NCBI GenBank assembly: GCA_951406725.2 | Contig: OX597818.1 | Location: 49,476,001 to 49,540,000 of the forward strand | Direction: 5' to 3' | Source: Octopus vulgaris | Lineage: Eukaryota | Length of the DNA: 64,000 bases | Part shown: positions 35,337 through 60,924 of the stretch, one piece after another | How positions within the stretch are numbered: position 1 is the first letter of the stretch | How the letters are laid out: each line of letters opens with the position of its first letter | Position numbers and translations under genes: made by a program | The notes under the pieces: model-generated | What the model saw: the letters and a program-made list of their open reading frames with translations, nothing else | Told to the model about the DNA's origin: nothing | Databases searched by the model: none

Positions 35337-35570
35337 AAGGTGGCGAGCTGGCAGAAACGTTAGCACGCCGGGTGAAATGCGTAGCCGTATTTCGTCTGCC
35401 GCTACATTCTGAGTTCAAATTCTGCTGAGTTTGACTTTGCCTTTCATCCTTTCGGGGTTGATAAATTAAGTACCAGTTACGCACTGGGGTCGATGTAATC
35501 GACTTAATCCATTTGTCTGTCCTTGTTTGTCCCCTCTATGTTTAGCCCCTTGTGGGTAATAAAGAAATAG
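35337..35570 (+). mobile_element. SINE (family E), full length
   Basis: Reverse complement of 20024-20256. Confidence 0.9.
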
Positions 35571-35653
35571 GTATGTATGGTGATGCTTTTGAAGATTGTG
35601 TGTGGGTATGTGGATAATGGTGTGTGGTGTGAGTGATATATATATATATATAT

Positions 35654-36305
35654 ATTAACAATCAAGGAACGGCCATAATAGGCCATTCACCCACTAGAAA
35701 TAACAGCCAAAAGCTTTAACCGCAAAATAACGTCAATTCCCACTAGGCCGCTGGAGGCAAAAGAATTCTACAAAATTTTTTTTTGCCACCCTATATTGAT
35801 TAATTATGAATTTTCTGGTTAATTCCGTAATGGAATCGGCGGCTTATATTTATTTGCTGCCGATAAATTTGGCGCGAGTGCGACGATTTGAAAATTTTAG
35901 GTCAGATATTGACGAGGTAGCAATGAGAATGCCTCGTGAAAAATATCTGTTCCGGTTTGGCTATTTCTTACTGATGAATCTAAGGGCCTATGGTAGATTG
36001 GCTTGATTTAATTTAATCAGGTTAGTTTTCCATTAAACAGAAGATGAAACGGTGCATCGTCTAAGAAATTACAGGGTAAATGTTTTTCAATTTTCTCCTG
36101 GTTTACGGAATTGACGTTATTTTGCGGTTAAAGCTTTTGGCTGTTATTTCTAGTGGGTGAATGGCCTATTATGGCCGTTCCTTGATTGTTAATGTTGAAC
36201 TTAAAAATGGTTTATGACTATTTAATTTTTTCCCACTAGGCCGCTGGAGGCAAAAGAATTCTACAAAATTTTTTTTTTTTTTGCCACCCTATATTGATTA
36301 ATTAT
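35654..36305 (+). mobile_element. Retrozyme/Penelope-like non-coding element with direct terminal repeats and an inverted segment
   Basis: Direct repeats 35737-35807/36230-36305 (period 493), perfect 87-bp inverted repeat 35654-35740/36107-36193, (TA)n on both sides. Confidence 0.85.
35963..36069 (+). ncRNA. Type I hammerhead ribozyme, canonical core, long helix II insert
   Basis: ATTTCTTA-CTGATGA-ATCT...AGAT-GAA-ACGGTGCATCGT-C-TAAGAAAT. 8-bp helix I, predicted cut after GUC 36061. Confidence 0.82.
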
Positions 36306-37819
36306 ATATATATATATATATATCTATCAATTTAAAAATTGTAAAGTGATATAATTTATTTAGTGACACAGAATTCAGTAGACTGAGTAGAACAGATATA
36401 ATAAAAATTGGTAGTCAACTCAGAAATTTGTCCTTGGTCAAGATGTTCAAGTCTTGAACAATCCAGCCAAGAGTGAAACTCAGAGTAGACAGTTGATTTT
36501 TGATTGATTGATTAACTGATTGGATGTATGTATGTGTGTGTAGCAGATGGTGGTTTCACACATGTGTAAGTTACAGTTAAGCATAAAATGCACTCAATAC
36601 TCTAAGGCAGAATGAAATAAATGAGACATCTTTCAAACTGGGTTTGTATGAGTAGCTTACACTGCTGGTTCTCAGACAAGTGGCACTGTAGTTTTCAAAG
36701 CTTGCTTATAAACATAATCCACTGACTAACTTTAATCAGGTGATCCTGAAAAACAACTTTGGCAGGGGTAATTGTTACACCATCTCCACATACATACCTT
36801 TTTACTGTTTTGCTGTTTTTTTTTATATGTATGTATAAATCTATTATACACAACTAATCACAACAAAAGGGAGCTTACTATATATGCTATCTTAGCCCCT
36901 ATCAGAATGAATAAAACACATTAAATGATATTTTCCCCCCTCTTACCACAGGTCAAAAGCATCCATCCGCATGAATACATATGTGTACTTGCATGCAAAC
37001 GCATGCGTGCATGCACACACACACACTTGTGACATCCATAAAACACTACTTAACAGAAAGCTGCTGAAATTCTGGGAGAACACTGACACCATTTTTATTT
37101 TATTTTTCTCATCTATTATTTTCCTTCTTTTCCATCACCCACCAGTTCTTCTCTATGGCTTTTCTCTCTTCTCCTTCCTTTTTTTGTCTCCTTTTCTATA
37201 CAGTTTGTTACTTGTCTATGTAATCAATAATCCCTATCAAATTTGTTTTGAGGGAATCAATTGATCGTTTTATGCATAAGCAAGTTTAAAAAATAACAAC
37301 ACTAGTGATCTGAGGACCAAGAACAAGAAACTCTGAATTGTGACTCAGCTTCCAATACTACTACTACTACTACTAATAATAATAATAATAATAATAAATG
37401 CATGTGCATGCCCCCACACACACACACATACACACACAAAAGTCACATTAAGTACATGAACATAAAAATAATTTAAAGCATTGTATTTTCTCTACAGCAA
37501 CAGGCAAGAAACATTATCCAAAATTAGTACACACAGAAGAAGAGACTACTTCAAAGTCAATAAAACAGTTTTCCAGCATTGCATTGGTGGTAAAGAGACA
37601 TGTTGTTAACAATTATCACTTGGTAAGTGTATTTAAATGGAATCACTTAAAAAATATTTTAAATAGTAATTTCTTATTGAACTAGATGACTGCAAAAAAT
37701 TTAAATTATCAAGATTATTATAGGAGTCTATTGAATATAAATATTGGAGGAACAAGGCAATGAAAGAGACTCTATGCAATCACTTAACTGGCTAAGTAAA
37801 GCAACCAAATCTCCCTTAA

Positions 37820-59426: not shown

Positions 59427-59460
59427 CGGTGACCAGTGAATAGATTTCACTGTAAATATA

Positions 59461-59602
59461 TATATTTGCGAAGGCTTGGCAGGTATCTCAACTAGCAGGA
59501 CTTGCTACTCTGGACTGATGATGGGCAAGACCTAGAAACATGCATGTCTTCAGGTTGCTAGTCCTAGCTGGTGGGGATGCTTGCCTCCCCTTCGCAAATA
59601 TA
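59461..59602 (+). ncRNA. Type I hammerhead ribozyme at the tip of a ~55-bp rod
   Basis: TCTGGA-CTGATGA-TGGG-CAAGA-CCTA-GAA-ACATGCATGT-C-TTCAGG. Helix I extends to TATATTTGCGAAGG/CCTTCGCAAATATA. Predicted cut after 59548. Confidence 0.88.
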
Positions 59603-60924
59603 AGGACGCAGGAAATGTGTCAAAGCCGACAGGAAGCATCGATGCTTCCTAGGGCTAAATAGTGGTGGTGTAATTCCCTTTATGGGACTGACACGTTATG
59701 TTGACAGTATACAACCACTATATATATATATGAGGAAAACTGAAATCTCATATAACAAATTAAAAAACTTTTTTGAGAAGTTTGCTTCCCAACCACATGG
59801 TTCTGGATTCAGCCTGAGTGGCATCTTGGCCAAATGTCTTCTACTATAACCCCCAGACTGACAAAAACTTTGTGAGAGGATTTGGTAGATGGAAACTGAA
59901 GGAAGATTATCTTGAAACCACATGGTCGGGTGACCAAACAAGTTAACCACACAGCTATGTCTGCCCCATATATTAAAAGATTAAAGGAAAATGCTATAAA
60001 AGCATCAATACAGAATCACAACCAATTGACAATTTACAATTTAGATGTCTGAAAATTGCATGTGGTTGGTTTCCCTTTGCAGCGCTGTGGCATCACTGAT
60101 TGGAGCTGACCCAATTCATCTAAAACGATTGCTGACGCAAGTGCTACTAAGTTACAGTACATCAGCTCACTAGTAATAGATTTTCGTGCTAGCGCAGAAA
60201 ACGGACGTTAAACGATGATGAATCCATGAGGTACTTACCATTCAATCAGCTATAGAATATATACCAACTAAATTTGAATTTATAGAATAAATCCTCCCAT
60301 AAAGCTGACATCTAACATACTCTTTTGTAGTACCCACGAAAGAAATTTCATAGTCATCATAGCACTACAAAAAAAAAATGTCCCTACAGAGCAGTAAATA
60401 TTATCATTTCTTTTGTTAGTAAATTCAACAATAATAGCTCTCTTCTCTCAGAAATGAGACAACCATATTTCACAAACATCTTTAACCTTTATCAACATGA
60501 ATAATTTATATAGAGCAATGTGTGGGTCAACTATTAAACGTATTTATAAATATACCAATGAAAGACCTATTTAAAGCTTCCCAATTCTATACACAATCAA
60601 AATAATAAACCAGTTCAACTTCAGGCATGAAGAAGGAGTTAACGATTGAAGAGGGAAAGAGAATTAAAGTATTAGTTTCTGGCTCTTATATAATTGAGAT
60701 AAGTAAATCAATAAATAAAAACATACAAATGTGCATACACATACGTGTACACACACACAGTGACGTATTATTTTACATGACACAAAACAAATTTATCATC
60801 AAGACTAGGGGGCATGTACAGCAACTGTTGTATATTAACTCAAGCAATTAAACTCATCCTAAGAGAGCCTCTTCATAAGCTATATTCAGCTGAGACAAAG
60901 ATAAAAATGTGTGTGTAATATATA

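What the first reader, a model, noticed from the sequence alone, without database searches (positions are those of the whole stretch)
35654..36305. Young 493-nt retrozyme-like unit with intact hammerhead, direct repeats and an 87-bp inverted cap
Seen: layout A'(inverted)-B-core-A-spacer-B. The B copies are identical except for poly-T length, A and A' are perfectly complementary, CpGs are undecayed, and there is no credible ORF. The core is highly structured (stems 35821-30/36103-12, 35835-43/35856-64, 35903-35949) and holds a canonical hammerhead. Inference: a slightly-more-than-unit cDNA from a ~493-nt circular or tandem RNA, inserted recently by Penelope machinery.
Basis: partly seen in the sequence, partly recalled or inferred. 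Interest (0 to 1): 0.9.

Follow-up and report, generated by a model that had tools for sequence, protein, structure and literature searches.

The report
Two-armed hammerhead retrozyme family, Penelope-type insertions
This is one short copy of a 493-base non-coding repeat that carries a predicted self-cutting RNA (hammerhead) motif and sits at hundreds of TA-microsatellite sites, usually as two head-to-head arms ending at two fixed, different points, a layout that likely records a Penelope-type reverse transcriptase pair copying one, probably circular, RNA from both sides of the cut.

Summary
The locus is a short member of a young non-LTR retrozyme family: 956 exact copies of its hammerhead 26-mer lie in the genome, with older subfamilies at 80-90% identity. 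The type I hammerhead has a 60-nt structured loop II and covaries across subfamilies; Rfam misses it. The '87-bp cap' and the 'direct repeats' are not special parts. Insertions are two 5'-truncated arms joined head to head inside (TA)n, one ending at unit position ~457, the other at ~71, 107 nt further. Of 85 insertions, 60 had both ends at these sites, always one of each; none had the same site twice. Intact Hydra-clade Penelope-like elements here follow the same rule (15 of 15). The two arms share a haplotype (433 of 433 site calls), cross up to 11 cleavage sites and do not stop at the cleavage site. Likely mechanism: a Penelope RT/endonuclease dimer primes both target strands on one circular RNA. 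Not shown: cleavage, circles, the exact partner. Class and Penelope link are published, and the scan noted similar layouts in other genomes; new are this family and the strict two-site rule.

The parts
35636..35653 (.). left (TA)n target remnant
   Evidence: sequence; both flanks are (TA)n in most of 42 insertions
35654..35740 (-). short arm: unit positions 371-457 inverted; its outer end is fixed site A
35737..35740 (.). 4-nt microhomology at the head-to-head junction of the two arms
   Evidence: 27 of 41 junctions overlap by 2-13 nt
35737..36229 (+). one full 493-nt repeat unit
   Evidence: 138 full units, mostly 490-496 nt
35963..36069 (+). type I hammerhead: stem I 35963-70/36062-69, CUGAUGA 35971-77, stem II 35978-81/36042-45 enclosing a 60-nt loop with an 18-bp hairpin (35990-36033), GAAA 36046-49, self-complementary stem III/loop 36050-59, predicted cut after 36061
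36137..36152 (+). motif TTGGCTGTTATTTCTA about 40 nt before site A, shared with otherwise unrelated (TA)n-inserted families; likely a recognition signal for the mobilising protein
   Evidence: 29,078 genomic matches, control 4; role inferred
36159..36193 (+). hairpin followed by site A (arm end, unit ~453-457)
36194..36305 (+). 'tail' between site A and site B (107 nt in the unit, 112 here because of the longer T run); pairs back onto the region before site A and holds a second hairpin; ends at site B (unit ~66-71)
36306..36323 (.). right (TA)n target remnant

Best explanation
The locus is a short copy of a non-coding hammerhead retrozyme whose insertions are two head-to-head arms in (TA)n ending at two fixed sites 107 nt apart, likely made when a Penelope-like (probably Hydra-clade) RT/endonuclease dimer nicks both target strands and primes one cDNA at each site on a single, probably circular, 493-nt RNA. 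Steps: (1) read-through transcription of an array (inferred; weak sequence-run support). (2) The hammerhead cuts once per unit and the monomer is ligated into a circle (inferred from covariation here and from published retrozymes). (3) The protein dimer binds the structured region between sites A and B, one active site at each (inferred from the one-of-each rule, which is shown). (4) Each RT runs for a variable length, past its start if the template is a circle, and stops at random (lengths and random stops shown; rolling inferred). (5) The two cDNA 3' ends are joined by microhomology and filled in (junction overlaps shown). Some arrays later grow by local duplication (shown by periodic variants in about four arrays).
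For: One-of-each rule: 34 of 42 young and 18 of 28 older insertions and 8 of 15 loci taken in positional order on contig C1 have both ends at the fixed sites, always A+B; none is A+A or B+B; the other 25 are one-armed, truncated or complex. The same holds for 15 of 15 two-armed copies found for three intact Hydra families and, by eye, for about nine insertions of an unrelated 589-nt retrozyme. A purified Penelope protein nicks and extends both strands, starts at two internal sites that bound the tail, and is predicted to be a dimer (PMC11167929). Arms agree at polymorphic sites in 356 of 356 calls (274.5 expected if independent) and 77 of 77 (62.9 expected); sites are linked, so these are not independent tests. 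Variants private to one locus are fixed through whole arrays, across both arms in L047, L048, L057 and L067. 85 of 90 arms are longer than a cleaved monomer could template, arms cross up to 11 cleavage sites, only 1 of 90 stops within 5 nt of the cleavage site (2.0 expected), and no indel marks that site in 138 units. Hammerhead helices: 97.6% of cells paired, 4 of 7 stem I pairs with changes on both sides, slid controls 25-46%; stem III/loop stays self-complementary in several sequence forms. Hydra families here also have type I hammerhead-like motifs, two of them with ~55-nt loop II and ~155-nt tails, and sit in (TA)n.
Against: No autonomous element with sequence similarity to the unit was found, so the partner and its clade are inferred. 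No circle and no cleavage were observed. In the one putative RNA run the unit is present but about 8-fold scarcer relative to the neighbouring SINE than in DNA, so there is no sign of an abundant RNA (contigs only, RNA status a guess). In a monomer circle the hammerhead helices have predicted probability of only about 0.07. For the purified Penelope protein uncleaved RNA was the main substrate and the ribozyme was dispensable, and 8 of 9 frog retrozyme dimers did not cleave in vitro. Period-2 or period-4 variants in L035, L047, L057 and L356 show growth after insertion or multimeric templates, so array length alone does not prove rolling. Most loci were chosen by best score, which favours long arms.
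Confidence: 0.62

Rival explanations
1. Same Penelope-type two-site priming, but the template is an uncleaved linear read-through transcript of an existing array. Arrays regain length by unequal exchange after insertion, and the hammerhead has another job, such as trimming transcripts.
For: Uncleaved RNA was the main substrate in vitro (PMC11167929). Local duplications are visible in about four arrays. A lineage that passes through a 1.2-unit arm would also give homogeneous arrays. No enrichment in the RNA run.
Against: Both arms are often several units long with one haplotype and private fixed variants. Few single-unit variants are shared between loci (14 shared site-base pairs among 135 singletons). 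The ribozyme is kept under compensatory change in a unit that encodes nothing. Partly cleaved linear multimers would leave arms that stop at the cut, and these are not enriched.
Confidence: 0.25
2. Only one cDNA is primed at the target. The second arm is made by fold-back (self-priming) of that cDNA or of an antisense template and is resolved at the other site, as proposed for rotifer Penelope elements.
For: It explains arm concordance directly. 4 of 41 junctions are palindromic (both arms start at the same position), and one minor variant is mirrored about the junction (L041). The model is in PMC3846280.
Against: With a fixed order of events one arm would always be the longer; A is longer in 18 and B in 23 of 41. 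37 of 41 junctions are not palindromic. It does not explain why the same site is never used twice. B arms stop at 453-457, the A site, in 4 of 47 cases, as if meeting a second primer (post hoc, p 0.07 for a 16-nt window).
Confidence: 0.1
3. An ordinary dispersed satellite or DNA-level element whose hammerhead is a relic, spread by recombination or rolling-circle DNA amplification.
For: Tandem arrays; some growth after insertion.
Against: Fixed 3' ends with random 5' truncation, head-to-head inversion, (TA)n targets and the same end rule as intact Penelope-like elements; hammerhead covariation over about 20% divergence.
Confidence: 0.03

Closest known systems
Animal non-LTR retrozymes (Cervera & de la Pena 2020, PMC7229834, passages read; Li, Clavereau & Pollet 2026, 10.64898/2026.07.22.740005, parts 1-3 of 5 read)
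   Same: Non-coding tandem units of a few hundred bases, one type I hammerhead per unit, GC below 50%, monomers to multimers, proposed to be non-autonomous Penelope-like elements.
   Different: Hammerhead with a 60-nt structured loop II. Insertions are two head-to-head arms with two fixed ends in (TA)n; the word 'inverted' does not occur in PMC7229834, and no such layout is described in the parts of the preprint that I read. Circles and cleavage were shown for coral, mussel and axolotl families but not for this one.
Insertion architecture of endonuclease-bearing Penelope-like elements (Craig et al. 2021, PMC8557442 / 10.1101/2021.04.23.441226, passages and supplement look-ups; Arkhipova et al. 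2013, PMC3846280, passages; Frangieh et al. 2024, PMC11167929, parts 1-2 of 4)
   Same: Partial tandems, an inverted 5'-truncated copy, a tail usually on one end only, (TA)n targets, two RT start sites that bound the tail.
   Different: No coding part. Tail of 107 nt rather than 30-40. Here 'usually on one end' is counted as a strict one-of-each rule, both arms can be many units long, and they share a haplotype.
Hydra-clade Penelope-like elements (Craig et al. 2021)
   Same: (TA)n insertion, hammerheads, presence in octopus (Hydra-1_Obim in the supplement). Four young Hydra-type families with 722-899-aa frames are in this genome; two have long-loop hammerhead-like motifs and long tails, and three were shown to follow the one-of-each rule.
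   Different: None of the four shares sequence with the unit or carries its 16-nt motif in sense in its own terminal repeat, so the partner is not identified.
L1 twin priming (recalled, no call)
   Same: Two target strands prime on one RNA, giving a head-to-head inversion joined by microhomology.
   Different: Both priming sites are fixed and internal, either site can give the longer arm, and both arms can exceed one unit.

Membership tests
non-LTR retrozyme | type I hammerhead motif in each unit | tested here: met
   137 of 138 full units carry the core motif; covariation. Rfam models do not match.
non-LTR retrozyme | tandem units of a few hundred bases, GC below 50% | tested here: met
   units mostly 490-496 nt, up to about 10 per arm; GC 35.9%
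non-LTR retrozyme | no protein-coding frame, no LTR-type termini | tested here: met
   the repeats are circular-permutation overlaps
non-LTR retrozyme | self-cleavage of the transcript | not testable with these tools
   needs in vitro assay; predicted fold of the monomer circle mostly hides the ribozyme
non-LTR retrozyme | expression as linear and circular monomer RNA | tested here: inconclusive
   present in contigs of one putative RNA run without enrichment; contigs cannot show ends or circles
non-LTR retrozyme | target-site duplication, when present | tested here: inconclusive
   hidden by (TA)n on both sides
non-autonomous Penelope-like element | inverted 5'-truncated copy next to the main arm | tested here: met
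non-autonomous Penelope-like element | [quoted passage not shown] | tested here: met
   60 of 60 insertions with two canonical ends; tail is 107 nt, longer than the published 30-40
non-autonomous Penelope-like element | microsatellite / AT-rich target | tested here: met
non-autonomous Penelope-like element | sequence shared with the terminal repeat of an autonomous element | tested here: inconclusive
   none among one Neptune-type and four Hydra-type intact families and several decayed ones; searches score only the best 40-150 of thousands of candidates; Naiad elements were not searched
Hydra-clade dependent element | mobilised by a Hydra RT/endonuclease | not testable with these tools
   only shared anatomy

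The most novel reading that the evidence does not exclude
These insertions are a genomic record of double rolling-circle reverse transcription: two active sites of one Penelope dimer, held at two fixed points of one circular RNA, each copy the circle repeatedly into opposite target strands. A 16-nt signal with about 29,000 genomic copies lets many unrelated hammerhead circles share one enzyme. This would explain the tail, the inversion and the purpose of the ribozyme in one mechanism and give a 493-nt trans-substrate for testing it.
Probability: 0.4. Interest if true: 0.75.

Novelty: new member of a known kind. Interest (0 to 1): 0.52.

Why it matters
How Penelope-like elements make their tails and inverted ends, and whether animal retrozyme circles are really the transposition intermediate, are stated as open in the papers read. 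This family gives countable predictions: one RT start per target strand at two different sites, one RNA molecule per insertion, and no stop at the ribozyme cut. It also gives a small non-coding substrate, and the genome holds young intact Hydra-type frames to test with it. The long-loop hammerhead is invisible to Rfam, and at least two more retrozyme families of this type are in the same genome, so such elements are probably undercounted.

Tried and rejected
Rfam at two thresholds: no hammerhead match. Coding function: rejected. Search for the autonomous partner through GIY-YIG and four protein queries, then DNA comparison of the fetched loci: nothing shared beyond a 19-nt motif that Hydra family 1 carries as an antisense passenger insertion. 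Motif hits downstream of reading frames: L097 and L208 were read and are separate insertions; L114 and L117 look the same but were checked less closely. A query with another motif-bearing element led to a further retrozyme family, not to a coding element. No N-terminal-endonuclease (Naiad) piece turned up in the held loci, and the motif was not found by text search in the Craig supplement (line breaks can hide matches). Raw DNA reads of run X22 gave no read on the unit and only 47 reads on the whole stretch, including a SINE that is very deep in the other runs; I treat the run as uninformative, not as absence. No empty-site joint was among the joints listed. Summed contig depths are no copy number and were not used as one. 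Template jumping between cleaved monomers: rejected, because the cut site shows no indels and arrays are homogeneous. The second half of the contig C1 census (15 of 30 unsampled clusters) was not examined. Six complex or not TA-bounded loci were left out of the junction count, and two duplicate loci out of the older set. PMC5785218 (dimeric cleavage) was not available; only its title was seen in a reference list.

Full report
Observation. The layout is as described. An 87-nt perfect inverted repeat (35654-35740 / 36107-36193) and a 493-nt direct repeat that differs only in a T run lie between two (TA)n runs. The unit (window 35737-36229; 'U' positions below) has undecayed CpG (1.18 against 0.29 for the window), no credible frame and a strong fold (z -5.2). 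The hammerhead is a type I motif with a 60-nt loop II. Rfam does not find it; my own scan finds it and one other motif in the window, and none in 20 shuffles. The host is a 2.8-Gb animal genome. That it is octopus-like is my recalled impression of its SINEs and was not tested.

Copy number and age. A DNA search gave 438 matches from the 40 best of 1018 candidate regions, mostly 97-100% identical. An exact 26-mer over the ribozyme core occurs 956 times (control 0), in 35 clusters on the largest contig. Arrays at about 90% and subfamilies at 80-88% (2213 candidates, 40 scored) show repeated waves. The unit is also in DNA contigs of another sample of the same organism label and of a second organism.

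Ribozyme. 137 of 138 full units keep the core. On 13 non-redundant sequences the four helices are 97.6% paired; 4 of 7 stem I pairs and 2 of 4 stem III pairs change on both sides; partners slid by 1-3 columns pair at 25-46% (the sequences are related, so the shuffle counts are not probabilities). RNAalifold recovers all three stems unprompted. The 10 nt of stem III and its loop stay self-complementary in several sequence forms, which would allow a dimeric ribozyme (self-duplex -17.5 kcal/mol), though a 4-bp stem III also allows a monomer. Against activity: in a monomer circle these helices have probability of about 0.07, and 5 of 63 diverged copies did not fit the motif.

Architecture. Most insertions are two arms, head to head, both ending in (TA)n. 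The outer ends fall at U~453-457 (site A) or U~66-71 (site B), 107 nt apart across the unit boundary. Among 42 young insertions 34 have both ends at these sites, among 28 older ones 18, and among 15 loci taken in positional order on C1 8. All 60 are A+B. The other 25 are one-armed, truncated or complex; one of them (L312) is cut by another insertion, so its second end is unknown. The inner ends are scattered: 1 of 90 within 5 nt of the cleavage site, 2.0 expected. 27 of 41 junctions overlap by 2-13 nt and 4 are palindromic. Arm A is the longer in 18 and arm B in 23. B arms stop at 453-457 in 4 of 47 cases, a post hoc hint of a second primer at site A. The window's copy is therefore an 87-nt A arm plus a 569-nt B arm.

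One template per insertion. At 13 polymorphic sites the two arms agree in 356 of 356 calls (274.5 expected) and 77 of 77 (62.9 expected). Of within-locus variant calls, 83 are fixed in all covering units, 24 partial and 135 single-unit in 91 kb; 11 fixed variants are private to one locus. A cleaved monomer could template at most 132 nt from A or 239 nt from B; 85 of 90 arms are longer, and arms cross up to 11 cleavage sites (score-based selection favours long arms). The cut site shows no indels. So the template was a ligated circle or an uncleaved multimer. Periodic variants in L035, L047, L057 and L356 show that some arrays grew later by local duplication or came from multimeric templates; the mosaic in L060 may be assembly polishing (inference).

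Link to Penelope-like elements. Inverted 5'-truncated copies, a tail on one end and (TA)n targets are published hallmarks (10.1101/2021.04.23.441226, passages; PMC3846280, passages). A purified protein nicks and extends both strands, starts at two sites that bound the tail, with no strand difference, and is predicted to dimerise (PMC11167929, parts 1-2 of 4). This genome holds a Neptune-type family (781 aa; Pfam RVT_1 and GIY-YIG) and four Hydra-type families (722, 778, 899, 727 aa); family 1 shows the CxCX5C linker that defines Hydra, and the others were placed by similarity to it. Families 2 and 3 have hammerhead-like motifs with ~55-nt loop II and ~155-nt tails. 15 of 15 two-armed copies found for families 2-4 have one end at each of their two sites (none was found for the Neptune-type family). 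None shares sequence with the unit. The unit does share a 16-nt motif before site A, and a short AT-rich motif at site B, with an unrelated 589-nt retrozyme of the same layout. The first motif recurs before the ends of several other (TA)n elements and 29,078 times in the genome (control 4); not all of these were inspected.

Expression. One putative RNA run holds the unit while the unique flank is empty. Relative to the adjacent SINE the unit is about 8-fold scarcer than in DNA, so background transcription or DNA carry-over would explain it. The raw-read run was uninformative.

Mechanism and rivals. The one-of-each rule, shared haplotype, free arm lengths and microhomology joints fit a dimer whose two active sites prime opposite target strands at two fixed points of one RNA. 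A circle best explains long homogeneous arms, private fixed variants, the absence of stops at the cut and the selection on the ribozyme (0.62). An uncleaved linear multimer remains possible (0.25). Fold-back copying explains concordance but not the arm-length symmetry or the end rule (0.10).

What is known. Non-LTR retrozymes and their circles are described (PMC7229834, passages), and their origin from Penelope terminal repeats is argued by phylogeny (10.64898/2026.07.22.740005, parts 1-3 of 5; its supplements are closed). Five literature searches listed no paper on octopus retrozymes or on a strict pairing of the two ends; subscription papers and Repbase entries were not searchable, so the family may be catalogued there as an unclassified or Penelope repeat. 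The scan's notes had no look-alike sequence and nothing for this genome, but similar Penelope-type layouts in other genomes. Verdict: a real, young, new member of a known class, valuable mainly as a clean record and test substrate of Penelope insertion. Interest 0.52.

Noticed in passing
window 59456-59722: A second, unrelated element between (TA)n runs with a short-loop type I hammerhead motif at about 59509-59554; no copy among the held loci at E<1e-8. Probably a truncated terminal repeat of another Penelope-like family.
   Followed up: partly
window 35337-35574: A very abundant SINE-like repeat just left of the insertion (summed contig depth about 100 times that of the unit in DNA runs).
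   Followed up: no
L104:1468-5168 and L101-L113: A young Neptune-type Penelope-like family in which a 479-aa frame without Pfam match overlaps the start of the 781-aa RT/GIY-YIG frame by about 80 nt; endonuclease-bearing elements are described as single-frame. Its terminal repeat has only a degenerate hammerhead-like motif and a 40-nt tail.
   Followed up: partly
L321-L350 (e.g. G000:C9:34224251-34231346): A second young retrozyme family, 589-nt unit, long-loop hammerhead, same two-armed layout, 1831 candidate regions.
   Followed up: partly
L164:7160-8870: A third retrozyme family, period about 535 nt, hammerhead with 51-nt stem II region, head-to-head arms in (TA)n, tail about 130 nt.
   Followed up: no
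L199-L217, L249-L260, L151-L168: Four young Hydra-type families with intact 722-899-aa frames; their tails are about 70-155 nt, far longer than the published 30-40 nt.
   Followed up: partly
L166:6400-6630 and homologues: Hydra family 1 carries a small two-armed passenger insertion with the shared motif inside its own 3' (TA)n and has spread it.
   Followed up: partly
L040, L045, L066, L109, L074, L078, L102, L161, L208, L037, L043, L097: Many further type I hammerhead-like motifs with 26-81-nt stem II regions next to (TA)n, some with a UUGAUAA or CCGAUGA core variant.
   Followed up: no
L073:341-397: A solo 57-nt piece of the unit ending at site A inside (TA)n; very short copies probably make up many of the unscored candidates.
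   Followed up: no
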